A stretch of 64,000 nt of DNA from Chloroflexota bacterium. GTDB lineage: Bacteria; Chloroflexota; Limnocylindria; Limnocylindrales; CSP1-4. Shown here piece by piece: positions 4,105 through 45,513 of this stretch. The position numbers and the translations under genes were made by a program. The notes under the pieces are model-generated. The model ran no database searches. It was not told the origin of the DNA and worked only from the letters and a program-made list of their open reading frames with translations. The stretch is from contig JBJOLT010000032.1 in the NCBI GenBank assembly GCA_046045415.1, forward strand, positions 4,578 to 68,577, in the 5' to 3' direction. Positions within the stretch are counted from its first letter, which is position 1, and each line of letters opens with the position of its first letter.

Positions 4105-4139
4105 CGTCTCCTCAGCGCTCGTTCAGGAGGCCGGTACGC

Positions 4140-24448: not shown

Positions 24449-27079
24449 CTACCCGTGTCCGTGCCCGTCGTGGCCCCCGTGACCGTGGCCGTTGCCGTTC
24501 GCATGGGCGTGGCCGTTGCCGCCGCCGTTCCGGGCGAAGCTCGCCGGGAGGACCGGGAGGTTCGACCCCGCGAGGGCTCGCTGCTCGCCCGACGCCCGGA
24601 GCGCCCACTGGCGCTCCCGCCGGACGTACGTCATCTCCGTCTCCTGGTCGATCCGCGCGAGGGCGAGGAGGTCGATCATCGGGTTCTCGCGGCTCTCGTG
24701 GGCGAGCTCGAAGTCGGCGCCGTCGCGGAGCGCGTCGTACGGGCAGGCGTCGACGCAGATCCCGCAGAGGATGCAGCGGCTCTCGTCGACCTCGTACTTC
24801 TGGAGGACCCGCGGCTTCGGCATGAGCGCGCCGGTCGGGCACGTCTCCGCGCACCTGCCGCACGAGACGCACGGCGTCTCGTTCAGGCTCATGTCGAGCG
24901 GCGTCGTCACGAGCGTGTCGAAGCCGATCCGCATGAAGTCGTAGCACGCGGCGCCCACCACCTCGGCGCAGACGTTCGCGCAGCGACCGCAGTCGATGCA
25001 GCGGGACGGCTCGCGGAGGATGAACGCGTGGCTGTCGTCGCGGATGTAGTCGTGGTTCTTCCCGGTGAAGCGGTTCTCCGTGACGCTCCGGTAGCCCGCC
25101 CCCTGATGGTGGCCCTTCTCGAGGGTCCGGAGCGTGGTCCCGTACTCGATGCCGAGCCGGCGGAGGTCGCAGAAGCCGATCGCCTCGCAGGTGCACTGGA
25201 GGCAGCGGGTCGACTCGGCGACCGCCTCGGCCGGGGTGTACGGCAGCTCGTACTCGACGTAGCTCCGGTTCCGGTCGTGCGCCTCCATCGCCGTCATCCG
25301 GTAGCGCGGCTCCTTCGCCTCGCTCGTGAACGGGACGATCGAGAGGAACTCCGGCTGCGGCTCGGCGAGCGTCTGGCGCGTCCGGATCGAGGCGAGGTCC
25401 GCGCCGCGGAGGTATGCGTCGACCGCGTACGCGGCGCGGCGCCCCTCGGCGATCGAGGCGACGACCGTCTGGGCGCCGGTCCGGACGTCGCCCGTCCCGA
25501 AGACGCCGGGGCGGTCGGTCGCGAACGTGACGGCGTCGGCCTTCAGCCGGCGGTTCTTCGTCGCCGTGACACCGACGCTCCCCGGGTGCTCGGCCCAGTC
25601 GAGCTCCGGCCCCTGGCCGATCGCGAGGAGGACGCGATCGCACGGGATCGTGAACTCCGTCCCCGGCGCCGGCTCCGGGCGGCGCCGGCCGGACGCGTCG
25701 GGCTCGCCGAGCTTCATCCGGATGAACTCGATCCCGGTTACCTTCCCGGACTTCTCGTCGACGATCACCCGGGTGGGGCCGGCCTGGAAGATCGCCGTCA
25801 CCCCCTCCTCGATCGCCTCGTGGACCTCGCCGGCGGCAGGCATGTCCTTCATGTCGCGCCGGTAGACGAGCGTCACCTCCTTCGCCCCCTGGCGGACGGA
25901 GGTGCGGACGCAGTCCATCGAGGTGAAGCCGCCGCCGACGACGACGACGCGGCTCCCCTTGTGGCCGGGGTACTCGAGGCCGAGCGTCGCGGTCCGGAGG
26001 TACTCGAGGCCGTCGATGACGCCGTCGGCCTCCTCGTTCGGGACGCCGAGCTTGTTCGTGTCGTAGCAGCCGATCGCGACGACGACCGCGTCGTAGCCCT
26101 GGTTCTGCAGGTCGTCGAGCGTGAAGTCGCGCCCCAGCCCCTGGTCGCAGACGATCCGGCCGCCGAGCCGGACGACGCTCTCGTACTCCGCCTCGAGGAC
26201 CTCCACCTTCGGGAGCCGGTACTGCGGGATCCCGTAGCGGAGCATCCCGCCCGGGGCGGGGTCGCGCTCGAAGACGGTGACCTCGTGCCCGCTGAGGAGC
26301 AGGTAGTAGGCGGACGACATCCCGGCCGGGCCGGAGCCGATCACCGCGACGCGGCGGCCCGTCGGCGCCTGGCGCTCGAACGGGACCGGCGGGTCGATCC
26401 CGTCGTTCAGCTGCGCCTTGAGGACCTGGTCCCCCGCGTACCGGTGGCTGTCGCGGATCGCGATCGCCTCGTCGACCTCGTCGCGCCGGCAGTGCTCCTC
26501 GCACGGGGCGGGGCAGACGCGGCCGAGCACCGACGGGAACGGGATCGTCCGCTTGAAGACCCGGGCCGACTCCCGCCAGTTCCCCTCGGCGTTCTGCTTG
26601 AGGAACCCGGGGATGTCGATGTGGCTCGGGCACTTGTTCTGGCAGGGCGGGAGGCAGTACGCGTTGTGGTCGCTGAAGATCAGCTCGAGGTTCGTCCGCC
26701 GGAGTCGGCGGACCTCCTCGGTCTGCGTGCTGACGACCATCCCCTCGGCCGCGGCGAGGGAGCAGCTGATCGGCGGGTTCTCGATCCCCTCGACCTCGAC
26801 GACGCACATCCGGCAGGCCCCGAAGCCGGGGAGCTTCGGCTCGTAGCAGAGGGTCGGGATCTCGATCCCGTTGTCGCGGCAGACCTCGAGGATCGTCTGG
26901 CCCTCGTGGCCCTCCACGACCCGGCCGTCCACCTCGATCCGGATCCGCGGCGTCGACTGCGGCCGCTGGGGCGAGACGGTGGTGAGGAGCCGCTCCGCGC
27001 GGGGGTCGGCGGCGGTCGCGGGCGCGCCGTCGCCGGTCGCCGGGGGCTGCGCGCCTGGTCGGATCAGCAGGTCGGTCAT
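24449..27079 (-). CDS. NuoG-like Fe-S subunit chimera: NuoG/HydA-type N-terminal 2Fe-2S + His/Cys cluster, complete GltD-like (glutamate-synthase small-subunit-type) FAD/NAD(P)H oxidoreductase module, three CxxCxxCxxxC(P) 4Fe-4S motifs, His/Gly/Asn-rich C-terminal tail; no molybdopterin-like domain
   Basis: 'TLCYEPKLPGFGACRMCVVEV...ISCS' (2Fe-2S); 'SDHNAYCLPPCQNKCP'; 'VCPAPCEEHC' + 'VAVIGSGPAGMSSAYYLLLSGHEVTVFERDPAPGGMLRYGIP' + 'VVVVGGGFTSMDCVRTS' (GltD Fer4_20 + two Rossmann sites); 'CIDCGRCANVCAEV', 'CVSCGRCAETCPTGAL', 'CILCGICVDACPYDAL'; tail 'NGGGNGHAHANGNGHGHGGHDGHGHG'. Confidence 0.8.
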   Translation of the reverse strand: MTDLLIRPGAQPPATGDGAPATAADPRAERLLTTVSPQRPQSTPRIRIEVDGRVVEGHEGQTILEVCRDNGIEIPTLCYEPKLPGFGACRMCVVEVEGIENPPISCSLAAAEGMVVSTQTEEVRRLRRTNLELIFSDHNAYCLPPCQNKCPSHIDIPGFLKQNAEGNWRESARVFKRTIPFPSVLGRVCPAPCEEHCRRDEVDEAIAIRDSHRYAGDQVLKAQLNDGIDPPVPFERQAPTGRRVAVIGSGPAGMSSAYYLLLSGHEVTVFERDPAPGGMLRYGIPQYRLPKVEVLEAEYESVVRLGGRIVCDQGLGRDFTLDDLQNQGYDAVVVAIGCYDTNKLGVPNEEADGVIDGLEYLRTATLGLEYPGHKGSRVVVVGGGFTSMDCVRTSVRQGAKEVTLVYRRDMKDMPAAGEVHEAIEEGVTAIFQAGPTRVIVDEKSGKVTGIEFIRMKLGEPDASGRRRPEPAPGTEFTIPCDRVLLAIGQGPELDWAEHPGSVGVTATKNRRLKADAVTFATDRPGVFGTGDVRTGAQTVVASIAEGRRAAYAVDAYLRGADLASIRTRQTLAEPQPEFLSIVPFTSEAKEPRYRMTAMEAHDRNRSYVEYELPYTPAEAVAESTRCLQCTCEAIGFCDLRRLGIEYGTTLRTLEKGHHQGAGYRSVTENRFTGKNHDYIRDDSHAFILREPSRCIDCGRCANVCAEVVGAACYDFMRIGFDTLVTTPLDMSLNETPCVSCGRCAETCPTGALMPKPRVLQKYEVDESRCILCGICVDACPYDALRDGADFELAHESRENPMIDLLALARIDQETEMTYVRRERQWALRASGEQRALAGSNLPVLPASFARNGGGNGHAHANGNGHGHGGHDGHGHG

Positions 27080-27091
27080 CGTCGGGGTCTT

Positions 27092-28414
27092 CTAGCTGCG
27101 GCCGCCCACCGGGACGGCGATCGGGCGGCAGACGCCGGCGGGGCAGGCGCTCCGCACGAGATGGTCGTCGAGCTCCGAGCGGAAGTATCGCATCCCACTC
27201 GTGAACGGGAGCGTCGCGAGCCGCTCGTGGTCGCAGAGGCCGCTCGCGCTCACGTCGTGCGCGAGGTCCTCGATGAGCGCGGGGTCGGTGGGCTTCGGCA
27301 CGCCGGTGACGATCCGCTCGCCGATCTCGTAGAGGCGGCGGAGCCCGATCCGGCAGGGGATCGTCTTCCCGCAGGCCTCGTCGGCGCAGAAGCGGGTGAG
27401 GAGCCGGGCGAGGTCGACGACGCATGCCCGCTCGTCGACCGCGACGAGCGAGCCGGAGCCGACGTGCGCACCCGCCTCCCGGAGCGGCTCGAAGTCGTAC
27501 GGCGTCGCGGCGAGCGTCGCCGGGAGGAGGCCGCCCGACGGGCCGCCGACGAGGAACGCCTTGAGGGCGTGTCCCTTCCCGGTCGCCCCGGCGAGGGCGG
27601 CGATCTCGCCGAGCGGCGTCCCGAGCGGCACCTCAGCGACCCCGGCGCCCGCCGGCGTCCGGAGCGCGACGAGCGCCGTCCCGGGGCTTGCGGACGAGCC
27701 CGTCTTCGCGAACGCGGCGGCCCCGTGGGCGAGGATCCACGAGGCGGCGGCGAGCGTCTGGACGTTCGCGACGACCGTCGGCTTCCCGAAGAGCCCGCGG
27801 ATCGCCGGGTGCGGCGGCCGCTGCTCCGGCTGGCCGCGCTTCCCCTCGAGCGCCTTCAGGAGGACGGTCTCCTCGCCGAGCATGTACGCGCCGGCGACCG
27901 GCGTGACGTGGACCGTCAGCTCGCGGCCGCTCGCGGCGTAGTCGCTCCCGAGGAGGCCCGCGTCGGTCGCGTGCCCCACCGCCGCCGTGAGCCGGCGGAC
28001 GACCTCCGTCTCCTCGGCGCGGACGGCGATCCACGCCTCGGCCGCACCGACGGCGTACGCGGCGATCGCGACGCCCTCGATGACCGCGTACGGGTTCGTC
28101 TCGAGGAGCGCACGGTCGGTCCCGGCCGCCGGGTCCGCCCCGTACCCGTTCGCGACGACGTAGCGGGTCGCGACGGGCTGGGTGGCGCAGACGCGCCACT
28201 TCTCCGCGGCGGGGAAGCCGGCGCCGCCGCGACCGCGGAGCCGCGCCTCGGCGACGACGGCGATCGTCCCCTCCGGCCCGAGCCCCACCGCCGCACGGAG
28301 GCCGGCGAACGCGCCGGCTGCGACGGCGGCGTCGAGGTCGGTGGGGTCGGCGGGCGTGGCGGCCGGGAGGAGGATCCGCGGCCACGCGGCGGGGGTCGGG
28401 AGGATCGTCGTCAC
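27092..28414 (-). CDS. nuoF: NADH-quinone oxidoreductase subunit F-like (51-kDa flavoprotein), divergent (GTG start)
   Basis: 'LRGRGGAGFPAAEKW', 'AGAYMLGEETVLLKALEGKRGQP', 'ACGKTIPCRIG' and 'SGLCDHE' align to the NuoF FMN/NADH and N3 regions. Confidence 0.8.
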   Translation of the reverse strand: MTTILPTPAAWPRILLPAATPADPTDLDAAVAAGAFAGLRAAVGLGPEGTIAVVAEARLRGRGGAGFPAAEKWRVCATQPVATRYVVANGYGADPAAGTDRALLETNPYAVIEGVAIAAYAVGAAEAWIAVRAEETEVVRRLTAAVGHATDAGLLGSDYAASGRELTVHVTPVAGAYMLGEETVLLKALEGKRGQPEQRPPHPAIRGLFGKPTVVANVQTLAAASWILAHGAAAFAKTGSSASPGTALVALRTPAGAGVAEVPLGTPLGEIAALAGATGKGHALKAFLVGGPSGGLLPATLAATPYDFEPLREAGAHVGSGSLVAVDERACVVDLARLLTRFCADEACGKTIPCRIGLRRLYEIGERIVTGVPKPTDPALIEDLAHDVSASGLCDHERLATLPFTSGMRYFRSELDDHLVRSACPAGVCRPIAVPVGGRS

Positions 28415-29071
28415 TCAGCGGCCCCCGAGCGCGGCGTCGAGGGCGCCGACGTAGGCGGCCTCGGTCGGGCGGAGCGCGGCCGCCGCCGGCGCCGCACCGC
28501 TCGCGGCCGTCGGCGGCTCGAGGCGGAGGTGCCGGTAGTAGGTGGCGGTGCCGTAGATCATCGCGTACCAGGCGCCGGTCCGGTGGCTGATCCGCTTGAG
28601 CGCGGCGACCGGGAGGTAGCCGTACGCCGCCTGGACCCCCTCGAGGATCGGGAGGAGCGCCTTCGGGTCCTCGCCGTGCTCCTCGAGGACGCGGTCGACG
28701 TCGGCGAGGTCGATCGGCTCGAAGCGGACGTACGCCGGGTCGGGGACCGGGCGGCCGGAGCGGCGGAGCGCCGATTCCTCTCGCCGCTCGGCGTACGTCT
28801 CGGTCGCGCCCCAGTGGACGTGGTAGCGGCCCTTCGTGTCGACGCCGCCCATGTCGATGCACTCGATCGGGCAGGCCTGCGCGCACTGGAAGCAGGTCTC
28901 GCACTTCAGCGTCCCGAACTCGTCGTAGAGGAGCTGGAGCCGCCCGCGGAAGCGGACCGCCTCGTCGGGCGCCACCTCCGGGTAGCGGACGGTGATCTTC
29001 GGCGCGAAGAAGCGCCGGAGGGTGAGCGCCATCCCCCTGACGATCCCGAGGCCGGGCACGAGGCTCATCAT
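28415..29071 (-). CDS. 218-aa chimera: NuoI-like N-terminal half (one CxxCxxCxxxCP motif only) fused to a NuoE-like N-terminal helical region lacking the 2Fe-2S thioredoxin-like domain
   Basis: 'MALTLRRFFAPKITVRYPEV...VRFRGRLQL...KCETCFQCAQACPIECI' is NuoI-like; no second Cys motif; 'ALLPILEGVQAAYGYLPVAALKRISHRTGAWYAMIYGTATYY' matches the NuoE helical region (LLPILHxxQExxGYLP...VYGVATFY) but no Cys follows; ATGA/adjacent coupling to nuoH and nuoF. Confidence 0.7.
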   Translation of the reverse strand: MMSLVPGLGIVRGMALTLRRFFAPKITVRYPEVAPDEAVRFRGRLQLLYDEFGTLKCETCFQCAQACPIECIDMGGVDTKGRYHVHWGATETYAERREESALRRSGRPVPDPAYVRFEPIDLADVDRVLEEHGEDPKALLPILEGVQAAYGYLPVAALKRISHRTGAWYAMIYGTATYYRHLRLEPPTAASGAAPAAAALRPTEAAYVGALDAALGGR

Positions 29072-30414
29072 CCCCTCCCGTTCACGACGACGATCGCGGC
29101 GGCGGTCACGAAGAGGTTGAGGAGCGCCGCGGGGGTGAGCCACTTCCAGGCGAACCCCATGAGCTGGTCGATCCGGACCCGCGGGAGCGTCCCGCGCATC
29201 CAGACGAAGATGAACACGAAGACGTACGACTTGACGAAGAACCAGAGGAGGCCGATCACCCAGTCGAGGCTCACGACCGCGAGGCCGAGGACGCCGGCGA
29301 CGGCGACGAGGTTGAAGAGGACGAAGCCGATGACGAGCGCCCGGACGAGCGAGACGCGGCTGTCGAGCATCCAGAACGGGAGCGCGAGCCCGACGATCGC
29401 GAGCGGCGGGACGACGAGGAGGAGCGCGAGGAGGCCGATCCCGAGCGAGCCCGGGTCGAGCGCCACAGAGACCGGGAAGGGCCAGTCGAACGGGGCCGTC
29501 CAGCCGCCGAAGAAGAGCGTCACGGCGAGCGCCGAGACGATGAAGACGTTCACGTACTCGGCGAAGAAGAAGAAGCCGAAGCGCATCCCGGAGTACTCGG
29601 TCGCGAAGCCGGCGACGATCTCCGAGTCCGCCTCGGTCAGGTCGAACGGGGTCCGGTTCGCCTCCGCCGTCGCGGCGATGAAGAAGATGAGGAAGCCGAG
29701 CGGCTGGCGCCAGACGTTCCAGTCGAGGATCGAGCCGGACTGCATCTCGACGATCGCGTTCAGGCTCATCGTCCCCGCGAGGAGGATGAGGCCGACGACC
29801 GAGAGCGTGAGCGGGATCTCGTAGCTGACGACCTGGGCGGCCGCCCGGAGCCCGCCGATGAGCGAGTACTTGTTGTAGCTCGCCCAGCCGGCCATGAGGA
29901 GGCCGACGACGCTCAGCCCCCCGATCGCGAAGAAGTAGAGGAGCCCGATGTTGAAGTCCTGGCCGAAGAGGCCGGGCGCGAACGGGATGACCATCATCGT
30001 CATCACGCACGAGAGGAACGTGACGACCGGCGCCCACGTGAAGACGAGGCCGTCGGCGCCCGTCGGGGTGAAGTCCTCCTTCACGAGCACCTTCAGCCCG
30101 TGGTTCACCGACATGAGCGACCCGAACGGCCCGACCCGGTCCGGCCCGATCCGAAGGTTGATCAGCGCGATCACCTTCATCTCCATGTAGATGATGAGGA
30201 AGGCGGTCGGGACGCTCAGGAGGAGGACGGCGGTCGCCGCGACGACGAAGCGGATGATCGGGAGGTTCGCGAGGAGCGCCTCGAGGATCGTCCCGCCGAG
30301 GAGCGCGATCACCGCGACGAGCGAGGCGGTCACCGCGAGCAGGACGGGGACCGCGACGAAGACGACCTTCCCCGGGAGCGTGAGGCGGCTCCAGGCGCGG
30401 GAGGCGACCGTCAC
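29068..30414 (-). CDS. nuoH: NADH-quinone oxidoreductase subunit H (deduced GTG start overlapping nuoD stop)
   Basis: 448 aa, 'GLLYFFAIGGLSVVGLLMAGWASYNKYSLIGGLRAAAQVVSYEIPL', 'EADSEIVAGFATEYSGMRFGFFFFAEY' NuoH hallmarks. Confidence 0.85.
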   Translation of the reverse strand: MTVASRAWSRLTLPGKVVFVAVPVLLAVTASLVAVIALLGGTILEALLANLPIIRFVVAATAVLLLSVPTAFLIIYMEMKVIALINLRIGPDRVGPFGSLMSVNHGLKVLVKEDFTPTGADGLVFTWAPVVTFLSCVMTMMVIPFAPGLFGQDFNIGLLYFFAIGGLSVVGLLMAGWASYNKYSLIGGLRAAAQVVSYEIPLTLSVVGLILLAGTMSLNAIVEMQSGSILDWNVWRQPLGFLIFFIAATAEANRTPFDLTEADSEIVAGFATEYSGMRFGFFFFAEYVNVFIVSALAVTLFFGGWTAPFDWPFPVSVALDPGSLGIGLLALLLVVPPLAIVGLALPFWMLDSRVSLVRALVIGFVLFNLVAVAGVLGLAVVSLDWVIGLLWFFVKSYVFVFIFVWMRGTLPRVRIDQLMGFAWKWLTPAALLNLFVTAAAIVVVNGRG

Positions 30415-31652
30415 TTGTCGATCCCTCCCATGATCGGGTCGAGCGACGCCATCACCGCCATCGTGTCGGCGACGAGGTTCCCCGGCATGAGGAGCGGGAC
30501 GAGCTGGAGGTGGACGAACGACGGGTCGTGGATCTTCAGCCGGAACGGCTGGTCGGTCCCGTCGCTGATCGCGTGCATCCCGTAGACGCCGCGCGGCCCC
30601 TCGACCGCCCCCCACGCGCGACCGGGCCGCGGCCGGAGGAGGCGGGGGAGCTTCGCCATGACCGGCCCGTCCGGCATCTCGTGGAGGCACTGGTCGATGA
30701 TCCGGAGGCTCTGGCGGACCTCGTCCATCCGGAGGAGGTAGCGCGCGAGGCAGTCCCCCTCGCTCCGGGTGGGGATGTCGAACTCGAGCTCCGGGTAGAC
30801 CGAGTACGGGTGCGCGCGCCGGAGGTCGAACGGGACGCCGGTGGAGCGGAGGTTCGGCCCGGTGACGCACATCCGGATCGCCGTCTCGCGGTCGATCGTC
30901 CCGAGGCCGCGCATCCGGCGGACGAAGATCTCGTTCTCGTTCAGGAGCCCGAGGTTCGCCTCGATCTGGCTGCCGGCCCGCGTCATCCACTCGCCGAGGC
31001 GGCTCATGAACTCGTGGTTCAGGTCGCCGTTGACGCCGCCGATCCGGAAGTAGTTGAAGAGCATCCGCTGGCCCGTGAGGGCCGCGAGCATCTCCACGAT
31101 CTCGTCGCGCTCGATGAAGCTGTAGAGGATCGGGGTGAGGCCGCCGAGATCGAGCGCCATCCAGCCCATGAAGAGCGCGTGACTCTGGATCCGGAGGAGC
31201 TCGGTCGAGAGGACCCGGATGTACTCGGCGCGGCGCGGCACCTCGACGTCGAGGAGCTTCTCGAAGGCTATCACCGCCGCCCACTCGCTGAAGAGCGAGC
31301 TGACGTACTCGAGCGGGTCGACCTGGCTGATGCACTGGTGGTAGTCGGCGTTCTCGCAGAGCTTCTCCACCCCGCGGTGGAGGTAGCCGAGGACCGGGTC
31401 GATGTCGATGACCTGCTCGCCGTTCAGCTTGAGGACGACCCTGAGGACGCCGTGCGTCGAGGGGTGCTGCGGCCCCATGTTGATGAACATCTCGCCGTCG
31501 CCGAGCGTGTAGAACTCGGCTTCCCGCTCGGTCCGCGGCGGGTACGGCGGGACCGGCTCGAAGACGCCGATCTCGGCGTCGAGCGTCACGCGCGGGTCGT
31601 CGGCCGACTGGTGCGCCGGCATCTCGTACGGGGTGTGCGGCCCGGCCGTCAT
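30411..31652 (-). CDS. nuoD: NADH-quinone oxidoreductase subunit D (49-kDa)
   Basis: 'FINMGPQHPSTHGVLRVVLKLNGEQV', 'DPVLGYLHRGVEKLCE', C-terminal 'RLKIHDPSFVHLQ' blocks; starts at MTAGPHT (ATGA overlap with nuoC). Confidence 0.9.
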   Translation of the reverse strand: MTAGPHTPYEMPAHQSADDPRVTLDAEIGVFEPVPPYPPRTEREAEFYTLGDGEMFINMGPQHPSTHGVLRVVLKLNGEQVIDIDPVLGYLHRGVEKLCENADYHQCISQVDPLEYVSSLFSEWAAVIAFEKLLDVEVPRRAEYIRVLSTELLRIQSHALFMGWMALDLGGLTPILYSFIERDEIVEMLAALTGQRMLFNYFRIGGVNGDLNHEFMSRLGEWMTRAGSQIEANLGLLNENEIFVRRMRGLGTIDRETAIRMCVTGPNLRSTGVPFDLRRAHPYSVYPELEFDIPTRSEGDCLARYLLRMDEVRQSLRIIDQCLHEMPDGPVMAKLPRLLRPRPGRAWGAVEGPRGVYGMHAISDGTDQPFRLKIHDPSFVHLQLVPLLMPGNLVADTMAVMASLDPIMGGIDK

Positions 31653-32197
31653 GCGCCGATCCTTCGGACGACCGCGTCCGCCGCCGTGTTCGTCGGCACC
31701 TGCGGCTGCTCGATGTGGCGGACCCCGCCGCCGGGCGAGCGCGCCGCGTCGTCCGGGAGGTGGAAGTCCTTCCGGAGCGGGAAGCTCCGGTACTCGGGCG
31801 GCATGTAGATCCGGCGGAGGTCGCGGTTCCCCTCGAACACGATGCCGAACATGTCGTACGTCTCGCGCTCCATCCACTCGGCGCCCTTCCAGAGGAACGT
31901 CACCGAGGGGATGCGGGGCTCGTCGCGGGGGAGCTCCACCGCGATCACCCGGAGCCAGTCCGGCGAGGCGGGGCTCCAGAGGTGGTACGTGACCTGGAGC
32001 GTCGTCCCGGTGTCGACGCCGCAGAGGTCGGCGAGCATCTGGAAGCGGAGCTCGGGATCCTCGGCGAGGATCCGCATCACGTCCGGGACGTCCGCCGGCC
32101 GGACCCTGATCTCCGTCTCGTCATGGCGCTGGCGGACGGGGCCGACGAGCCGGTCGCCGAGGCTCGCCCCGAGTCGGCGCCGCAGGGCGCGGTCCAT
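31649..32197 (-). CDS. nuoC: NADH-quinone oxidoreductase subunit C (30-kDa)
   Basis: 182 aa, 'LADLCGVDTG...VTYHLWS', 'WKGAEWMERETYDMFGIVFEGNRDLRRI'. Confidence 0.85.
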   Translation of the reverse strand: MDRALRRRLGASLGDRLVGPVRQRHDETEIRVRPADVPDVMRILAEDPELRFQMLADLCGVDTGTTLQVTYHLWSPASPDWLRVIAVELPRDEPRIPSVTFLWKGAEWMERETYDMFGIVFEGNRDLRRIYMPPEYRSFPLRKDFHLPDDAARSPGGGVRHIEQPQVPTNTAADAVVRRIGA

Positions 32198-32200
32198 CGG

Positions 32201-32905
32201 TCAGACGCCCTCCGGGACGGTCGGGCCGACGGGCTTCTCCGCCCACTGGCCGCGGCGGTCCTTGACGATCTGCTGGAGCTTCATCATCCCGTAGATCAGC
32301 CCCTCGGGACGCGGCGGGCAGCCGGGGATGTAGACGTCGACCGGCATCACCCGGTCGATCCCCTCGATCGTCGAGTAGCTCCGCTTGTAGCGGCCGCCGG
32401 AGCACGTGCAGTCGCCCATCGCGACGCACCACTTGGGCTCCGGCATCTGCTCCCAGAGGCGGACGAGCGGCCCGGCCATCTTCGTCGTCAGCGTCCCCGC
32501 CACGATGAGGACGTCGGCCTGTCGCGGGCTCGCGCGGAAGGGGAACATCCCCCAGCGGTCCATGTCGTTCTTCGAGGTCGCCGCCGACATCATCTCGATC
32601 GCGCAGCACGCGAGGCCCGAGAGGAGCGGCCAGAGGCTGTTCATCCGGATGAGGTCGAGGACGTAGTCCGCCTTCGTCGGGATCACCTCGAGCGCGCCGC
32701 CCCAGCGGGCGTCGTCCTTCCGCTCGAGACCGGCGAGCTCCACCTGGCGGAGGTGGGTGACGTCCGATCCCGCCCCGCCCTGGTAGGCGAGCGGGTCGGT
32801 CGACGCCCAGAGGGTGTTCGGGACGACGATCGGCTCGACGAGCGCGTCCGACTCGCGGACGACGAGCGCCCCCGGGATCTCGCCGCCCCCGTCGCCCGGC
32901 CTCAC
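32201..32905 (-). CDS. nuoB: NADH-quinone oxidoreductase subunit B (deduced GTG start overlapping nuoA stop)
   Basis: 'SLWPLLSGLACCAIEMM', 'KWCVAMGDCTCSGGRY', 'VDVYIPGCPPRPE' (N2 cluster Cys set). Confidence 0.85.
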   Translation of the reverse strand: MRPGDGGGEIPGALVVRESDALVEPIVVPNTLWASTDPLAYQGGAGSDVTHLRQVELAGLERKDDARWGGALEVIPTKADYVLDLIRMNSLWPLLSGLACCAIEMMSAATSKNDMDRWGMFPFRASPRQADVLIVAGTLTTKMAGPLVRLWEQMPEPKWCVAMGDCTCSGGRYKRSYSTIEGIDRVMPVDVYIPGCPPRPEGLIYGMMKLQQIVKDRRGQWAEKPVGPTVPEGV

Positions 32906-33345
32906 CGCCACGACAGGACCCCCTTCCGCCACGCGTACGCCAGCCCGAGGAGGAGGATCGCGACGAAGACGAGCATCGTCACGAAGCCCGCGAGGAGGAG
33001 CTCCGGGAAGACCGTCGCCCAGAGGTAGATGAAGATCACCTCGATGTCGAAGGCGACGAAGAGCAGGGCGTAGATGTAGAACGAGACGCCGTACCTGCCG
33101 TGGGTGTCGCCGAACGTGTCGATCCCCGACTCGTACGGGAGCCCCTTGTGCGGGTCGCCCTTCACGCGGTGCGAGAGCAGCCACGCGGCGGCGATCGTGA
33201 GGAAGACGAACGAGACGCCGGCGAAGGCGAACCCGACGACGTACCAGATGCCGGTCAAGCGTTCCTCGCTCTCGAAGGGGCGGGGGCGATGGCGGGCGCG
33301 ACGGGCGGCCGGGACGAGCGCGGTCGGCGTCGCACGCTCGCGCAT
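32902..33345 (-). CDS. nuoA: NADH-quinone oxidoreductase subunit A (start uncertain: ATG at 33345 or later)
   Basis: Three-helix membrane protein 'GIWYVVGFAFAGVSFVFLTIAAAWLLS...DTFGDTHGRYGVSFYIYALLFVAFDIEVIFIYLWA'. Confidence 0.75.
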   Translation of the reverse strand: MRERATPTALVPAARRARHRPRPFESEERLTGIWYVVGFAFAGVSFVFLTIAAAWLLSHRVKGDPHKGLPYESGIDTFGDTHGRYGVSFYIYALLFVAFDIEVIFIYLWATVFPELLLAGFVTMLVFVAILLLGLAYAWRKGVLSWR

Positions 33346-33406
33346 TCTAGCAAGGGGCGGGGGGCCGGGCGCCGCCGGACCCGGCCCGGGATCCGCGCCG
33401 GGCCGA

Positions 33407-34678
33407 TCAGGGCGCCGTGGCGAGGTCGGGCCGCGTCCGGCCGAGGCCCGCGAGCGTCGCGTCGCCGGGGAGCGCACGGCCGAACGCGACGACCCGGAAG
33501 CCGCCCGTCGCGCCGGGGTCCAGGAGCCGCGCGACCGCGGCCCGCAGCTCGATCCACGAGGGGAGGGTCGTCGCCGGATCCTCACGGATCGCCGCGAGCA
33601 GCTCCCCGAGCCCCGAGCCGACGAGGAAGGCCGCCTGGGTCGTCGTCCCGAGGTGGCGGAGCCCGGCCGCCTCGCCCGCCCGGACGACGGCCGTCAGGTC
33701 GACGTGGGCGGTGACATCCTGGCGGCCGACATGGGCGTACGGGTCGCGCCCGACCATCTGGCGGAGGTACGTCCGGAGCGTCCCCTCGCGGCGCGCCGGG
33801 CCGTAGAGCTCGGCCGCGTCATGGCCGTAGTCGACGAGGAGGACGACCCCGCGTTCGAGGCGGCCGGCGACCGACGCGAGCCACGGGTCCAGCTCGAGGC
33901 AGATCTCGGCCCGCTGCCCGTCGGCGAGCTCGATCCCCTCGGCCTCGAGCCGGGCGGCGAGCGCCGGGGTCGTGGGGTCCGCGACGGCGTCGACGAAGCG
34001 GCCCGCCGCCCCGTCCCAGTCGACGAGGAGCTCCCTGAGCCGGCCCGCCGCCGACGTCACCCGATGGAACGGGAGGGCGTCGAGGAGCTCGTTCGCGAGG
34101 ACGACGCCGGCGACCGGGGCCGCATCCGGGGCGGCGAGCGACCCCGCGAACCCGGCGGCGGCGATCGCCCCCTCCAGCTCTGCCCGGCGCGGCGGGGCGG
34201 TCTCGACCGGCTCGTAGCGGAGTGCCGCGAGCAACGGCGAGCCCGAGCGTCGGAGTCCGTCGAGGATCGCGACGCCGAGCGTCCCCGACCCCGCTCCGTG
34301 CTCGACGAGCGTGAAGGGAGCGGGGCGACCGGCGAGCCCCCACGCCTCCTCGACGGTGCGCGCGATCGTCCAGCCGAAGATCGGGTGGAGCTCCGGCGCC
34401 GTGACGAAGTCCCCGGCGCGGCCCGGCCGCGGGCCCGGGGCGGCGTAGTAGCCGAGCTCGGGATCGTGGAGCGCGACCGCCATGAAGCGGGCGAAGGTGA
34501 TCGGGCCGCTCGCGGCGATCTCCGCCTGGAGCCGCTCGACCAGCCGCGGCTCGCTCGCGGGGAGCGGGCCGGGCGGCGGGACCCGGCGGATCCCCGGGAC
34601 GATCGAGGTCGTCCCCGCCGGCCCGTCGTCCGGCTCGCCGCCCCGTCCACGGCCCCGACCGTCGGCCGGGTCGCTCAC
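33407..34678 (-). CDS. MidA/NDUFAF7-family (DUF185) class I SAM-dependent methyltransferase (deduced GTG start)
   Basis: 'GPITFARFMAVALHDPELGYYA', 'GDFVTAPELHPIFGW', 'LVEHGAGSGTLGVAIL' are the MidA/NDUFAF7 signature blocks; immediately upstream of nuoA. Confidence 0.7.
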   Translation of the reverse strand: MSDPADGRGRGRGGEPDDGPAGTTSIVPGIRRVPPPGPLPASEPRLVERLQAEIAASGPITFARFMAVALHDPELGYYAAPGPRPGRAGDFVTAPELHPIFGWTIARTVEEAWGLAGRPAPFTLVEHGAGSGTLGVAILDGLRRSGSPLLAALRYEPVETAPPRRAELEGAIAAAGFAGSLAAPDAAPVAGVVLANELLDALPFHRVTSAAGRLRELLVDWDGAAGRFVDAVADPTTPALAARLEAEGIELADGQRAEICLELDPWLASVAGRLERGVVLLVDYGHDAAELYGPARREGTLRTYLRQMVGRDPYAHVGRQDVTAHVDLTAVVRAGEAAGLRHLGTTTQAAFLVGSGLGELLAAIREDPATTLPSWIELRAAVARLLDPGATGGFRVVAFGRALPGDATLAGLGRTRPDLATAP

Positions 34679-35856
34679 GCGTCGGTGCCTCCGGCCGCAT
34701 CGGCCCGGTCGGGACCGCGCTCCCGGAGCCCCCAGCCGGCGACGAGCCGCACCCCGGGCCCGACGAGGGTGTGGCCGCCGAGGACGATCGGGATCGGCGC
34801 CTCCCGCGCGGCCGCCGTCAGCTCCCGGAGCCACGGATCGCCGATCGACCGCTCGTCGAGGAGGTCGGACGCGTAGCGATCCTCGGCGGCCGGCCAGCCG
34901 GCCTCGTCGGGCCCGAGCCGGTGGGCGAGGAGGACCCTCGTGTCGACGAGGGCGGCGTCGCCGAGCTCCGCGAGGAGCCGTCCGATCGCACCCGGCCCAT
35001 CGCGGTCGAGGAGGAGCCCGAGCGTCGACCGGGGCGGGCGGATGCGGGTGCCCTCGGCTCCCCCGGCCGCCGGGCCGAGGGCGAGCGGGCTGCTCGCCCG
35101 GAGGCCCCGCTCCTCGACGAGCGCCCGGATCCGGGCCGCCGAGCGGCGCTCGAGCCACCGGACGGCCCTCCCGTTCGTCCGCCCGGCGAGGACCACCTCG
35201 GCCCGCCGATCGGCGAGCCGTGCCGCGACCGCGGCGAGCCGCCCCGTCACCGTCGCCGCCCGCCCGGCGAAGGCGGTCGTCGCCGCGGTGAGGACGACGT
35301 CGAGCGGGCTGTCGAGGTCGACCTGGAGCCGCCAGCGGTCGCGGAGGTCCCGGACGCGCCGGCCGGCGACCTCGGCGAGCCAGCGCGGGAGGGCGTTGTC
35401 GGCGGGGAGCGGCGGGATCGGCGGGAGCCGGTCGGCGCGCGCGATCGCGACGATGTCCGCGGAGTACGCGTTGTTCGCGAGCACCCGGGGCTCGGCGGCA
35501 CCGGCCGCCGCGACGAAGCGGCGGAGGTCGGCCGTCCGCGCGAGCGGGATGGATCCGGCGCCGAGGACGACCACCCCGAACGGATCGCGGTCGCCGGGCG
35601 GACCGCCCGCGAGCCGGTCCTCGCCACCGCCCGCGCCCCCCGCCCGGTCCCGGCCCACCAGCGCCGCGAGCCGCTCACCGAAGGACAGCTCGTCGGGCGG
35701 TCCCGCGACGAGGCGGACGTCCGCCGCCCCGGCCGCGACGAACCCGCGGACGTGGCGGTCCCCGGTGACGAGCCGGGAGGTCGCGAGGAGCCATTCGAGC
35801 GGCGGCGCCTCGGGCGCCGGCTCTCGGTGGAGGATGATGACGCGGACGGGCGGCAC
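34675..35856 (-). CDS. hypothetical protein (possible nucleotidyltransferase-fold N-terminal half; family not recognised)
   Basis: 393-aa ORF with coding GC3 bias, 'VVVLGAGSIPLARTADL ... VLANNAYSADIVAIARADRLP'; GTGA-coupled to the MidA-like gene. Confidence 0.45.
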   Translation of the reverse strand: MPPVRVIILHREPAPEAPPLEWLLATSRLVTGDRHVRGFVAAGAADVRLVAGPPDELSFGERLAALVGRDRAGGAGGGEDRLAGGPPGDRDPFGVVVLGAGSIPLARTADLRRFVAAAGAAEPRVLANNAYSADIVAIARADRLPPIPPLPADNALPRWLAEVAGRRVRDLRDRWRLQVDLDSPLDVVLTAATTAFAGRAATVTGRLAAVAARLADRRAEVVLAGRTNGRAVRWLERRSAARIRALVEERGLRASSPLALGPAAGGAEGTRIRPPRSTLGLLLDRDGPGAIGRLLAELGDAALVDTRVLLAHRLGPDEAGWPAAEDRYASDLLDERSIGDPWLRELTAAAREAPIPIVLGGHTLVGPGVRLVAGWGLRERGPDRADAAGGTDA

Positions 35857-35883
35857 CGCCCGAGTCTACCGAGCGGAGGTGGC

Positions 35884-36582
35884 GTGGTCCCCCGTCGGGT
35901 GCGCGCGTACATCGGCCTCGGGGCGAACGTCGGCGACGCCCGCTCGACGCTCCGGGATGCGGTCGCCGCGCTCCGTGCCCTCCCGGGCGTCCGGCTCGCC
36001 GGCGTCTCCGCGCTCTACGCCACGGCGCCGGTCGGGGTCGTCGATCAGCCGGACTTCGCGAACGCGGTCGTCGCGCTCGACGTCCCCGCCGGGCCGGATG
36101 CGCCCGCCGGCGCGACCGCCCTCCTCGTCGGCCTCAAGCGGCTCGAGCGTGCGTTCGGGCGGCAGCCGCGCGAGCGGTGGGGTCCCCGCGAGCTCGACCT
36201 CGACCTCCTCGTCTTCGGCCGCGCGCGCCTCTCGATCGAGCGGCCCCCGGCCGGCGCATCGCTCGACGCGGAGGTCGACCCCGGGAAGGCGACCCGGCTC
36301 CTCGAGGTCCCGCATCCCGAGGCGGCGAACCGCCTCTTCGTCCTCGCACCGCTCGCCGATCTCGCGCCGGCGCTCGTCCCGCCCGGCTGGCGGGTCCCGG
36401 TCGCAGCCGCACGCGACCGGGCCGTCGCGACCGAGGGCCCCGACGCGGTCCGCCGCGTGGGCCGCTGGGACCGGCGCAGGGGCGACTGGGTGGCGGAGGG
36501 GGCGGACCGTCAGCCGGCCGCGAGGTCCCGGACGGCGAGCCGCGTCTCGACGACCCGCCCGTCGACCCGCTCCACGCGGTAG
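35884..36582 (+). CDS. folK: 2-amino-4-hydroxy-6-hydroxymethyldihydropteridine pyrophosphokinase (HPPK); GTG start; C-terminal Arg/Ser/Thr-rich tail may be read-through
   Basis: 'RAYIGLGANVGDARSTL', 'YATAPVGVVDQPDFANAVVAL', 'GRQPRERWGPRELDLDLL', 'NRLFVLAPLADLAP' HPPK blocks. Confidence 0.7.
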   Translation: MVPRRVRAYIGLGANVGDARSTLRDAVAALRALPGVRLAGVSALYATAPVGVVDQPDFANAVVALDVPAGPDAPAGATALLVGLKRLERAFGRQPRERWGPRELDLDLLVFGRARLSIERPPAGASLDAEVDPGKATRLLEVPHPEAANRLFVLAPLADLAPALVPPGWRVPVAAARDRAVATEGPDAVRRVGRWDRRRGDWVAEGADRQPAARSRTASRVSTTRPSTRSTR

Positions 36583-41661: not shown

Positions 41662-44444
<2,783 letters not shown>

Positions 44445-44448
<4 letters not shown>

Positions 44449-45452
44449 CGGGTCGCTCCTGCGCCGCCGACCGCGGCGAGGAACGCCTCGGCCGCGCGCC
44501 GCTCGGCATCGTCGTGGAGGGTGGGGATCCGGACCCCGATCCGGACGAGGAGGTCGCCGCGGCCGCTGCCGGTGAGCCGTGGCATCCCCTGGCCGGCGAG
44601 GCGGAACGTGCGGCCCGGCTGGGTCCCCGGCGGGATCCGGAGGAGGACGGCGCCGCCGATCGTCGGGACGCGGACCTCGCCGCCGAGCATCGCCTCGCCG
44701 AGCTCGATCGTCAGGTCGCGGGACAGGTCGGCCCCCTTCCGCGTGAAGACGGCATTCGGGAGGAGCCGGGTCACGAGATCGAGGTCGCGGGCCGCCGCGC
44801 CGTCGCCGCCGCCCTGGCCGCGGAGCCGGACCCGGCTTCCGTCGTCGACCCCGGGCGGGACGCGGACCTCGAGCCGCTTCCCGTCGAGCTCGACGATCCT
44901 GCTCGTCCCGTGGAACGCCTCCTCGAGCGTCACGTCGACCGACGCCTCGACCGGGGCGCGCCGTCCTCCGCCGCGCCGGCCCCCCGCCTCGCCACGGCCG
45001 CCGGCACCGCCGCCCCGTCCGCCGAGGCCCGCGAGGAGCTCGTCGATCGACGCGCCGCCGGACCCCGCCGCCTCGCCCCCGAAGAACGCCCGGAAGAAGT
45101 CGGAGAAGCCCGATGCGTCGCCGCCGGTCCGGAACTCGAAGCGGACCCCGCCCGGCCCCGTCCCGCCGGCGGCCCCCGGGAACCCGCCGAAGCCGGCGAA
45201 CGGCCCGCCGCCGCGGCTCCGGGAGAGCTCCTCCCAGTTCGCTCCGAGGGTGTCGTACCGGCGGCGCTTCTCCGGGTCGGAGAGGACCTCGTGCGCCTCG
45301 TTCACGTCCTTGAAGCGGGCTTCGGCCGCCGGATCGCCGGGCCGGAGGTCCGGGTGATGCTCGCGGGCGAGCGCCCGGTACGCGCGCTTGATCTCGGCCG
45401 CCGTCGCGGTCTTCGGGACACCGAGCGTCCGGTAGTAGTCCTTGTACTCCAT
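44445..45452 (-). CDS. DnaJ-domain co-chaperone without zinc-finger repeats (CbpA/DnaJ2-like)
   Basis: J-domain '[36 protein letters not shown]...[20 protein letters not shown]'; Gly-rich linker; C-terminal substrate-binding domains; no CxxCxGxG. Confidence 0.8.
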
Positions 45453-45513
45453 CGGGGTCGCTCGGGGGCGCCCCGCCGGCCGGAGCCGGTGCCGCGCCCC
45501 CTCGCCCTCCTCG

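What the first reader, a model, noticed from the sequence alone, without database searches (positions are those of the whole stretch)
33407..34678. MidA/NDUFAF7-family methyltransferase gene immediately upstream of nuoA
The protein carries the DUF185 signature blocks GPITFARFM...GYYA, GDFVTAPE and LVEHGAGSG. This is the family of the eukaryotic complex I assembly factor that methylates an Arg of the 49-kDa subunit (NuoD). The gene is on the same strand, 61 nt upstream of nuoA, and is translationally coupled to another hypothetical gene. Bacterial members are little studied. Linkage to a nuo operon supports a conserved role in complex I maturation.
Basis: partly seen in the sequence, partly recalled or inferred. 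Interest (0 to 1): 0.55.

Follow-up and report, generated by a model that had tools for sequence, protein, structure and literature searches.

The report
MidA methyltransferase gene beside complex I genes
The gene is a real bacterial relative of the mitochondrial enzyme NDUFAF7, which methylates an arginine in respiratory complex I, and its relatives sit next to complex I genes in several unrelated bacterial groups, so it probably does the same job here, although nobody has tested this.

Summary
**Observation.** The ORF at 33407-34678 (-) encodes a 423-aa MidA/NDUFAF7-family protein. It matches Pfam PF02636 at E=2.4e-50. Its profile matches Dictyostelium MidA (5ZTZ) over nearly the full length. 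All three quoted motifs are present. Its GTG overlaps the stop codon of the upstream 393-aa ORF by 4 nt.

**Correction.** nuoA does not start at the ATG 61 nt downstream. It starts at the conserved TTG at 33258, 148 nt downstream. A conserved extended -10 promoter element, TGcTAGAAT, lies between midA and nuoA. It is present in the window and all 47 relatives examined. ORF393-midA is therefore probably a separate, leaderless two-gene unit just upstream of the nuo operon, not part of it.

**Interpretation: supported.**
- Synteny within Limnocylindria is conserved (57 of 80 genomes), but unrelated neighbours are conserved too, so this is weak evidence.
- The stronger evidence is repeated, differently arranged linkage in distant lineages:
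  - Nitrospirota: midA-nuoA, gaps of 15-68 nt.
  - Several cyanobacteria: ndhH-midA.
  - Two contigs of unidentified origin: ndhC-K-J-midA.
- Every linked NuoD/NdhH keeps the target arginine, GYLHRGxEK. In the window this is NuoD Arg93.

**Verdict.** This is a new member of a known kind. The activity is untested, and interest is moderate.

The parts
35863..35868 (-). TAGACT, a -10-like hexamer 6 nt upstream of the ORF393 start codon. It is the likely promoter of a leaderless ORF393-midA transcript.
   Evidence: This is the only TAGACT in the 64-kb window. A TAnnnT hexamer, mostly cTAGACTc, lies 10-16 nt before the ORF393 start in 41 of 48 loci.
34675..35856 (-). ORF393, a conserved 393-aa protein of unknown function and the first gene of the two-gene unit. 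The N-terminal ~200 aa has a MobA/CofC/FbiD-like nucleotidyltransferase fold. The C-terminal ~190 aa is an alpha/beta domain with no match among solved structures.
   Evidence: No Pfam or NCBIfam hit. 3230 relatives found and 839 representative clusters. AlphaFold2 model with pLDDT 86.4 and pTM 0.84. Foldseek hits 7p97, 6bwh, 3cgx and 1h4e with E down to 3.5e-4. The C-terminal domain alone has best E of 0.09. It lies directly upstream of midA in 53 of 80 genome loci.
34688..34692 (-). GGAGG Shine-Dalgarno-like sequence for midA, located inside the 3' end of ORF393.
   Evidence: Read from the sequence. It lies 9 nt upstream of GTG 34678.
33407..34678 (-). midA, a 423-aa MidA/NDUFAF7-family (PF02636) class I SAM-dependent methyltransferase. 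Its GTG start overlaps the ORF393 stop codon as GTGA.
33344..33352 (-). TGcTAGAAT, an extended -10 promoter element of the nuo operon. It lies 57 nt after the midA stop codon and 85 nt before the nuoA start.
   Evidence: TAGAAT occurs only twice in the whole window. Exactly one copy lies 63-160 nt upstream of nuoA in the window and all 47 related loci examined (48 of 48), mostly as ctGcTAGAATg.
32902..33258 (-). nuoA, 118 aa, with the start corrected to TTG 33258 preceded by GAGGAA.
   Evidence: PF00507 match. Conserved start shown. Translation.
32201..32800 (-). nuoB. The 5' end is approximate. It carries the N2-cluster cysteines: the CC pair, the Cys in WCVAMGDC, and GCPP.
   Evidence: PF01058 match. 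Cysteines read from the translation.
31649..32197 (-). nuoC.
   Evidence: PF00329 match.
30411..31652 (-). nuoD, 413 aa, the predicted substrate of MidA.
   Evidence: PF00346 match at E=1.3e-83.
31365..31379 (-). Codons for HRGVE in NuoD. Arg93 (31374-31376) corresponds to the dimethylated Arg85 of bovine and human NDUFS2.
   Evidence: The motif is conserved in all linked NuoD/NdhH proteins. Its identity with the mitochondrial site comes from PMC3750175 and PMC8042128.
18464..30414 (-). Remainder of the nuo cluster, in order: nuoH; an atypical nuoI; a nuoF-like gene; an 876-aa ferredoxin/GltD-like protein in the position of nuoG; then nuoJ, K, L, M and N.
   Evidence: Pfam scan and sequences.

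Best explanation
**What it is.** The ORF is a functional MidA/NDUFAF7-family SAM-dependent protein arginine methyltransferase of a Limnocylindria-class Chloroflexota MAG.

**How it is expressed**
- It is the second cistron of a two-gene unit, ORF393-midA.
- The unit probably starts at a leaderless TAGACT promoter.
- The two cistrons are translationally coupled through a GTGA overlap.
- The unit ends just before the nuo operon's own TGcTAGAAT promoter.

**Most likely role.** The same as mitochondrial NDUFAF7. It binds newly made NuoD and transfers methyl groups from SAM to the guanidino group of Arg93 in the HRGVE loop. This loop faces the N2 iron-sulfur cluster held by NuoB. Methylation would happen before or while NuoD joins NuoB in the quinone-reducing module.

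**Shown here**
- Family membership, with intact conserved motifs.
- Presence of the target arginine in NuoD and of the N2 ligands in NuoB.
- Recurrent, independently arranged linkage of midA to nuoA, nuoD/ndhH or ndhC-K-J in distant lineages.

**Inferred only**
- The substrate.
- The type of methylation (symmetric dimethylation).
- A role in assembly.
- Any role for ORF393.
For: **Family**
- PF02636 at E=2.4e-50, nearly full length.
- Profile hits to 4F3N, 1ZKD and Dictyostelium MidA 5ZTZ over positions 28-377 of 400.
- Among 24 relatives the invariant residues include the G-x-G of VEHGAGSG, DF.TA.E, ANE.LDALP.H, DYG and GRQD.TAHVD.

**Target**
- NuoD carries HRGVE.
- This arginine is dimethylated in mammals, yeasts and Paracoccus denitrificans, but not in E. 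coli (PMC3750175, PMC8042128).

**Linkage**
- 57 of 80 species-level genomes have nuoA within 1.2 kb downstream of midA.
- Microcoleus has ndhH-midA.
- In a second survey:
  - More distant cyanobacteria have ndhH-midA with gaps of 65-87 nt (L091, L097).
  - L103 and L105 have ndhC-K-J-midA.
  - Nitrospirota have secA-midA-nuoA-B-CD-E-F-G with gaps of 15, 59 and 68 nt.
  - L135 and L159 have midA-nuoA.
- MidA identity between these groups is only 35-50%, and the arrangements differ, so the linkages arose independently.
- All linked NuoD/NdhH proteins keep GYLHRGxEK.
Against: - No biochemical data exist for this or any non-proteobacterial member.
- In the window, nuoA has its own conserved promoter element. 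Co-transcription is therefore not required.
- Within Limnocylindria the unrelated neighbours folK, glpX and two others are conserved in order in 32-47 loci. That synteny is one inherited event, not repeated evidence.
- In a subclade (L043, L054, L058, L059) midA lies away from nuoA, about 7 kb upstream in L059.
- MidA is unlinked to nuo in Thermomicrobium, four Dehalococcoidia, an Anaerolineales and many cyanobacterial contigs.
- The closest solved relative is an uncharacterised Burkholderia protein (4F3N), not the alpha-proteobacterial/mitochondrial branch.
- The target arginine is also present in E. coli, where it is not methylated (PMC8042128). Its presence therefore does not discriminate.
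- A preliminary report claims DNA methylation by Wolbachia MidA (PMC12455994).
Confidence: 0.68

Rival explanations
1. The protein is a MidA-family methyltransferase with a different substrate, such as another protein or DNA. Its position next to nuo in this genome is only inherited gene order.
For: - General synteny in the clade also covers unrelated genes.
- midA and nuoA have separate conserved promoter elements.
- midA has moved away from nuoA in a subclade.
- Many lineages show no linkage, and their neighbours are diverse.
- Wolbachia MidA expressed in E. coli was reported to methylate DNA, a result the authors call preliminary (PMC12455994).
Against: Linkage to nuoA, nuoD/ndhH or ndhJ recurs in at least four differently arranged, distantly related lineages. 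These include 15-nt operonic spacing in Nitrospirota. With a few thousand genes per genome, repeated chance adjacency to the same enzyme is very unlikely (my estimate, not a computed statistic). No other neighbour recurs across lineages.
Confidence: 0.15
2. MidA does serve complex I, but in another way. It may modify a different residue or subunit, add only one methyl group, or act mainly as a NuoD-binding chaperone.
For: - The subgroup is closer to the uncharacterised 4F3N than to characterised MidA.
- The complex here is atypical: a NuoI with a single Fe-S motif and a GltD-like input protein.
- L103 and L105 place midA after ndhJ rather than beside ndhH.
Against: The SAM-binding and family motifs are invariant, which argues for catalysis. 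The HRGxE arginine is strictly kept in every linked NuoD/NdhH. In cyanobacteria the neighbour is specifically ndhH.
Confidence: 0.12
3. ORF393 and MidA form a two-enzyme system for a small molecule or cofactor. ORF393 would be the nucleotidyltransferase and MidA the methyltransferase, with no connection to complex I.
For: - Translational coupling is conserved across the clade.
- The N-terminal domain of ORF393 has a CofC/FbiD/MobA-like fold.
- Distant ORF393 homologues sit next to a phosphoribosyltransferase-like gene rather than nuo.
Against: - MidA occurs without ORF393 next to nuo genes in Nitrospirota, cyanobacteria and L131.
- In L059, ORF393 stays beside nuoA without midA.
- No member of PF02636 is known to act on small molecules (my own knowledge).
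Confidence: 0.05

Closest known systems
NDUFAF7 (human) / MidA (Dictyostelium discoideum; PDB 5ZTZ)
   Same: Same Pfam family, PF02636. Profile-level homology covers nearly the whole length. The SAM-binding and family motifs are shared. The substrate motif HRGxE is present in the cognate NuoD. The gene is linked to complex I genes.
   Different: Sequence similarity is low: 5ZTZ matched only residues 52-140 in a single-sequence search. There is no mitochondrial targeting sequence. The host is Chloroflexota, outside the proposed proteobacterial origin. Activity is untested.
Burkholderia COG1565 protein (PDB 4F3N/4G67) and Rhodopseudomonas palustris DUF185 (PDB 1ZKD)
   Same: These are the closest solved relatives, at E=5.5e-69 and 1.2e-40 with the family profile, with the same domain layout.
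   Different: Both are structural-genomics entries named as uncharacterised. They give no functional information.
Paracoccus denitrificans complex I (Nqo4 arginine dimethylation)
   Same: This is the one bacterial complex I in which the equivalent arginine was shown to be dimethylated (PMC3750175, PMC8042128).
   Different: The responsible enzyme was not identified in those papers. It is an alpha-proteobacterium. Whether its midA is linked to nuo was not tested here.
CofC/FbiD guanylyltransferases, MobA and DUF2064 (for the partner ORF393 only)
   Same: The N-terminal ~200 aa of the ORF393 model superposes on 7p97, 6bwh/6bwg, 3cgx and 1h4e (E 3.5e-4 to 8e-3, target TM 0.42-0.59).
   Different: Identity is only 12-17%. 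No Pfam or NCBIfam family matches. The conserved strand reads GSGAIPL where, from memory, these enzymes have an Asp-x-Pro motif. There is an extra C-terminal domain with no structural match.

Membership tests
MidA/NDUFAF7 (Pfam PF02636, COG1565, DUF185) | Full-length match to the PF02636 profile above the gathering score | tested here: met
   171.8 bits against a cut-off of 23.3, covering profile positions 1-248 of 249.
MidA/NDUFAF7 (Pfam PF02636, COG1565, DUF185) | Homology to an experimentally characterised member across the whole protein | tested here: met
   The family profile matches Dictyostelium MidA 5ZTZ at E=8.7e-28, profile positions 28-377 of 400 against chain residues 23-391.
MidA/NDUFAF7 (Pfam PF02636, COG1565, DUF185) | Class I SAM-binding motif (E/D-x-G-x-G-x-G) and the family blocks DF.TAPE, NE..DALP, DYG and D.TA.VDF | tested here: met
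   The sequence reads VEHGAGSG, GDFVTAPE, ANELLDALP, DYGH and QDVTAHVDL. These columns are invariant in 24 relatives and align with 4F3N, 1ZKD and 5ZTZ. That these blocks define the family is partly my own knowledge.
MidA/NDUFAF7 (Pfam PF02636, COG1565, DUF185) | The cognate NuoD/NDUFS2 carries the target arginine in the HRGxE loop | tested here: met
   Window NuoD has HRGVE with Arg93. All 62 linked NuoD/NdhH motifs in survey 1 and 13 in survey 2 keep it. The feature is necessary but not discriminating, because E. coli has the arginine unmodified (PMC8042128).
MidA/NDUFAF7 (Pfam PF02636, COG1565, DUF185) | Functional association with complex I | tested here: met
   Tested by gene neighbourhood only. 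Linkage appears in Limnocylindria, Nitrospirota, cyanobacteria (ndhH-midA) and two contigs of unidentified origin (ndhC-K-J-midA).
MidA/NDUFAF7 (Pfam PF02636, COG1565, DUF185) | SAM-dependent symmetric dimethylation of the NuoD arginine | not testable with these tools
   Requires mass spectrometry or an enzyme assay.
MidA/NDUFAF7 (Pfam PF02636, COG1565, DUF185) | Orthology with the alpha-proteobacterial/mitochondrial branch | tested here: inconclusive
   The profile scores 4F3N (Burkholderia) well above 1ZKD (alpha-proteobacterium) and 5ZTZ. No phylogeny was built.
nuo operon (as a member gene of the transcription unit) | Same strand, short gap, and no promoter between the gene and nuoA | tested here: not met
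   The strand is the same, but the gap is 148 nt and holds a TGcTAGAAT element that is present in the window and all 47 relatives examined. No terminator-like site was found, so read-through remains possible. In Nitrospirota the gap is 15-68 nt. These are sequence inferences only, without transcript data.
MobA/CofC/FbiD-like nucleotidyltransferases (for ORF393) | Fold similarity of the N-terminal domain | tested here: met
   Foldseek probability 1.00, E of 3.5e-4 to 2.4e-3, target TM 0.42-0.59.
MobA/CofC/FbiD-like nucleotidyltransferases (for ORF393) | Sequence-family membership and the catalytic motif | tested here: not met
   No Pfam or NCBIfam hit. Nine of ten further family members scanned also had none; one distant member gave a sub-threshold CTP_transf_3 hit of 17 bits. 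The conserved strand reads GSGAIPL. The comparison of motifs rests on memory.

The most novel reading that the evidence does not exclude
MidA-type arginine methylation of NuoD/NdhH is an old, widespread maturation step of bacterial complex I and cyanobacterial NDH-1, not a proteobacterial invention. In Limnocylindria it is carried out with a previously undescribed partner, ORF393, which has a CofC/MobA-like fold plus an unmatched C-terminal domain. ORF393 would then be a new complex I maturation factor for an atypical enzyme that has a one-motif NuoI fused to a NuoE-like segment and a GltD-like electron-input protein.
Probability: 0.15. Interest if true: 0.65.

Novelty: new member of a known kind. 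Interest (0 to 1): 0.4.

Why it matters
**Why the question is open.** NDUFAF7 is required for human complex I assembly. It is still unclear why the arginine next to cluster N2 must be methylated, and when this modification arose.

**What is known in bacteria.** Evidence is limited to one modified enzyme, that of Paracoccus, and to in-silico arguments for alpha-proteobacteria.

**What this work adds**
- midA sits beside nuoA, ndhH or ndhC-K-J in Chloroflexota, Nitrospirota and cyanobacteria, in independent arrangements.
- This extends the likely range of the modification beyond Proteobacteria, including to photosynthetic NDH-1.
- It points to experimentally accessible organisms, namely cultured Nitrospira and filamentous cyanobacteria. 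E. coli could serve as a naturally unmodified host.
- In these systems, methylation could be separated from the presence of the arginine.

**Limit.** The window's gene is one more member of the family and is not a new kind of system.

Tried and rejected
**Searches that found nothing**
- The promoter/terminator consensus scan of 32800-36300 found nothing. It requires both hexamers, so it missed the -10-only elements later found by comparison.
- Rfam on the whole window gave no hit.
- The nuoA leader shows no structure: z=+0.97 against shuffles. I rejected the idea of a leader RNA element.
- NCBIfam gave no meaningful hit for either protein.

**ORF393**
- A fold search with the C-terminal domain alone found no significant match.
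- Distant ORF393 homologues were checked for nuo linkage. They sit after a phosphoribosyltransferase-like gene, and one is followed by SHMT. This weakens the idea that ORF393 is specific to complex I.

**Neighbours of unlinked midA genes**
- They are heterogeneous: SpoU methylase, nitroreductase, a solute-binding protein, CO-dehydrogenase flavoprotein, citrate synthase, HD domain proteins, TrmI, an M24 peptidase and a ParA-like protein.
- No alternative functional theme emerged.

**Literature**
- The text search for 'DUF185' mostly returned DUF185x families, such as DUF1854.
- The key paper, Shahul Hameed et al. 2018 (Cell Rep), is not held. Its claims are cited second-hand from PMC9006661 and PMC12455994.
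- No paper reporting midA-nuo/ndh synteny was found.

**Rejected reading**

Full report
**1. Source and observation**

The window has about 74% G+C. The MidA protein is 100% identical to a 423-aa protein that NCBI annotates in a Chloroflexota MAG. Its nearest named relatives are 'Candidatus Limnocylindrales'.

- The ORF at 33407-34678 (-) contains the three quoted blocks.
- It matches PF02636 Methyltransf_28 at E=2.4e-50 over the whole profile.
- A single-sequence search of solved structures finds 4F3N, 1ZKD and Dictyostelium MidA 5ZTZ.
- With a profile of 24 relatives, the 5ZTZ match extends over nearly the whole protein at E=8.7e-28.
- 2974 relatives scored E<=1e-5, so this is a real gene.

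**2. Start codons and coupling**

- No in-frame start codon lies between GTG 34678 and the conserved N-terminal helix.
- This GTG overlaps the TGA of the upstream 393-aa ORF as GTGA and is preceded by GGAGG.
- Across relatives, the ORF393 stop and the midA start lie within -10 to +10 nt in nearly all loci. The spacing is exactly -4 in 26 of 58. Translational coupling is thus a conserved feature.
  - All relatives begin NuoA at the TTG or GTG codon preceding TGIWYVVGF.
  - The upstream reading frame is unconserved and sometimes interrupted by stop codons.
- nuoA therefore runs from 33258 to 32902 and encodes 118 aa, with GAGGAA upstream. The gap to midA is 148 nt.

**3. Transcription signals**

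- TAGAAT occurs only twice in the 64-kb window. One copy lies between midA and nuoA, at 33349-33344.
- The window and all 47 related loci in which the nuoA start could be located (48 of 48) have exactly one TAGAAT, 63-160 nt upstream of nuoA. It mostly reads ctGcTAGAATg, an extended -10 element.
- The only TAGACT in the window lies 6 nt before the ORF393 start. A TAnnnT hexamer occupies this position in 41 of 48 loci, which fits a leaderless transcript.
- The most likely layout is [TAGACT]-ORF393-midA, then [TGcTAGAAT], an ~85-nt leader, and nuoA to nuoN.
- No terminator-like site follows midA, so read-through is possible.
- The leader is not significantly structured, and nothing in the window matches Rfam.
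- These are sequence inferences. No transcript data were available.

**4. First synteny survey: one genome per species**

| Outcome | Loci (of 80) |
|---|---|
| nuoA within 1.2 kb downstream of midA, same strand | 57 |
| nuoA 2.4-7.1 kb downstream | 3 |
| nuoD homologue adjacent in another arrangement | 7 |
| Contig ends too early to tell | 5 |
| No nuo gene within 10 kb | 8 |

- ORF393 lies directly upstream of midA in 53 loci.
- This clade-level conservation is weak evidence on its own. folK (divergent), glpX and two further unrelated genes keep their positions in 32-47 of the same loci. The arrangement is therefore one inherited event.
- In a subclade (L043, L054, L058, L059), midA lies away from nuoA, next to other conserved genes. 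In L059 it is about 7 kb upstream, while ORF393 stays next to nuoA.
- Six Microcoleus species have ndhH (PF00346) followed by midA (PF02636) on the same strand. The gap is 224 nt in L075.
- One Chloroflexota contig, L050, has midA convergent with nuoD-nuoB.

**5. Second survey: metagenome contigs, anchored on Microcoleus MidA**

About 14 of 80 loci are linked. Many of the remaining contigs are too short to judge.

- Cyanobacterial MidA proteins only 58-65% identical to each other follow ndhH, with gaps of 65-87 nt (L091, L097) or 715 nt (L114).
- L103 and L105 have ndhC-ndhK-ndhJ-midA, followed by malate/lactate dehydrogenase.
- L130 has secA-midA-nuoA-nuoB-nuoCD with a 68-nt gap. Its relatives are named Nitrospira or Nitrospirae.
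- Two long Nitrospirota contigs show midA-nuoA gaps of 15 and 59 nt, followed by a canonical nuoB-CD-E-F-G.
- L135 and L159 also have midA-nuoA, with gaps of about 130-150 nt. In L118 the gap is 4 kb.
- MidA identity between these groups is 35-50%.
- At least four distinct arrangements therefore place midA beside complex I/NDH-1 genes, and in cyanobacteria the neighbour is the predicted substrate gene itself.
- Every linked NuoD, NuoCD or NdhH keeps GYLHRGxEK.
- Unlinked midA genes have heterogeneous neighbours with no recurring alternative theme.

**6. What is known**

- The dimethylated Arg85 of bovine and human NDUFS2 lies in the HRGxE loop near cluster N2.
- Thermus thermophilus has Thr at this position. 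Paracoccus denitrificans Nqo4 is dimethylated. E. coli has the arginine but does not methylate it (PMC3750175, PMC8042128).
- NDUFAF7 is the responsible enzyme in humans (PMC3829151).
- A bacterial role has been argued in silico for alpha-proteobacteria (Shahul Hameed 2018, as cited in PMC9006661). The function of prokaryotic MidA is described as inferred only in silico (PMC12455994).
- That same paper reports preliminary DNA methylation by Wolbachia MidA.
- I found no paper describing the synteny reported here.

**7. The partner, ORF393**

- It has no Pfam or NCBIfam match.
- It has 3230 relatives by word-indexed search and 839 representative clusters by exhaustive profile search.
- The AlphaFold2 model is confident, with pLDDT 86.4 and pTM 0.84.
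- The N-terminal half resembles CofC/FbiD guanylyltransferases, DUF2064 and MobA.
- The C-terminal half has no significant match among solved structures.
- Distant homologues are not next to nuo genes.
- MidA is linked to nuo without ORF393 in other phyla and in L131.
- ORF393 is therefore a lineage-specific companion of unknown role.

**8. Mechanism and verdict**

The best-supported reading is that this MidA methylates Arg93 of NuoD with SAM during assembly of the quinone-reducing module, as NDUFAF7 does.

- Family membership is essentially certain.
- I put the complex I role at about 0.7.
- The chemistry is inferred by homology only.

This is a new member of a known kind. The cross-phylum linkage is a useful but modest addition to what is known.

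Noticed in passing
window 28415-29071 (-): The NuoI homologue has only one CxxCxxCxxxCP motif (5 Cys in total) instead of the usual two. Its C-terminus is a Cys-free segment that matches the first 63 positions of the NuoE family, PF01257. The form is conserved at about 75% identity in roughly 50 related loci, so it is not an assembly error.
   Followed up: partly
window 24449-27079 (-) and 27092-28414 (-): No canonical NuoE or NuoG is present. After a NuoF-like protein (PF01512 + PF10589) comes an 876-aa protein with Fer2_4, Fer4_20, a GltD-like Pyr_redox_2 domain and 4Fe-4S domains, ending in a His/Gly-rich tail. The gene order is A-B-C-D-H-I-F-X-J-K-L-M-N. This suggests an atypical electron-input module.
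   Followed up: partly
window 33344-33352 (-) and 35863-35868 (-): Two clade-wide conserved -10 elements stand out in otherwise 74% G+C DNA. TGcTAGAAT lies ahead of nuoA with a ~60-160 nt leader. cTAGACTc lies 6-8 nt ahead of the ORF393 start, which implies a leaderless transcript. The standard two-hexamer promoter scan missed both.
   Followed up: yes
window 34675-35856 (-): ORF393 represents an unannotated protein family of 839 representative clusters. It has a CofC/MobA-like N-terminal fold and a C-terminal domain with no match among solved structures. Distant members follow a ComF-like phosphoribosyltransferase gene.
   Followed up: partly
L164 6001-7563 and L166 6001-7673 (Nitrospirota contigs): In Nitrospirota, midA is effectively the first gene of a canonical nuoA-B-CD-E-F-G cluster. 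The midA-nuoA gap is 15 nt in L164 and 59 nt in L166, and secA lies upstream.
   Followed up: partly
L103 4092-8193 and L105: The order here is ndhC/nuoA, ndhK/nuoB, ndhJ/nuoC, midA, then malate/lactate dehydrogenase. The contigs have ~60% G+C, and their MidA is 47-51% identical to cyanobacterial MidA. The organism was not identified.
   Followed up: no
L070 8509-9648, L073 8271-9410, L080 8486-9625: Three Dehalococcoidia loci have a 379-aa ORF directly upstream of midA. It is citrate synthase in L070 (Pfam). The other two were not scanned.
   Followed up: partly
L077 8319-9101: In an Anaerolineales contig, the gene after midA is a MinD/ParA-like P-loop ATPase. It also scores on the PF10609 model (NUBPL-type Fe-S transfer NTPase, E=1.5e-8). 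NUBPL is a complex I assembly factor in mitochondria. The hit may only reflect general ParA similarity.
   Followed up: no
window 35899-36582 (+): folK (HPPK) is transcribed divergently from ORF393, with only 42 nt between the two start codons. This pairing is conserved across the clade.
   Followed up: partly
window 3978-9353 (+) and 41662-45513 (-): Two very long ORFs with coding-like GC3, of up to 1791 and 1283 aa stop-to-stop (starts not determined). The second is conserved in synteny in 32 related loci. Neither was characterised.
   Followed up: no
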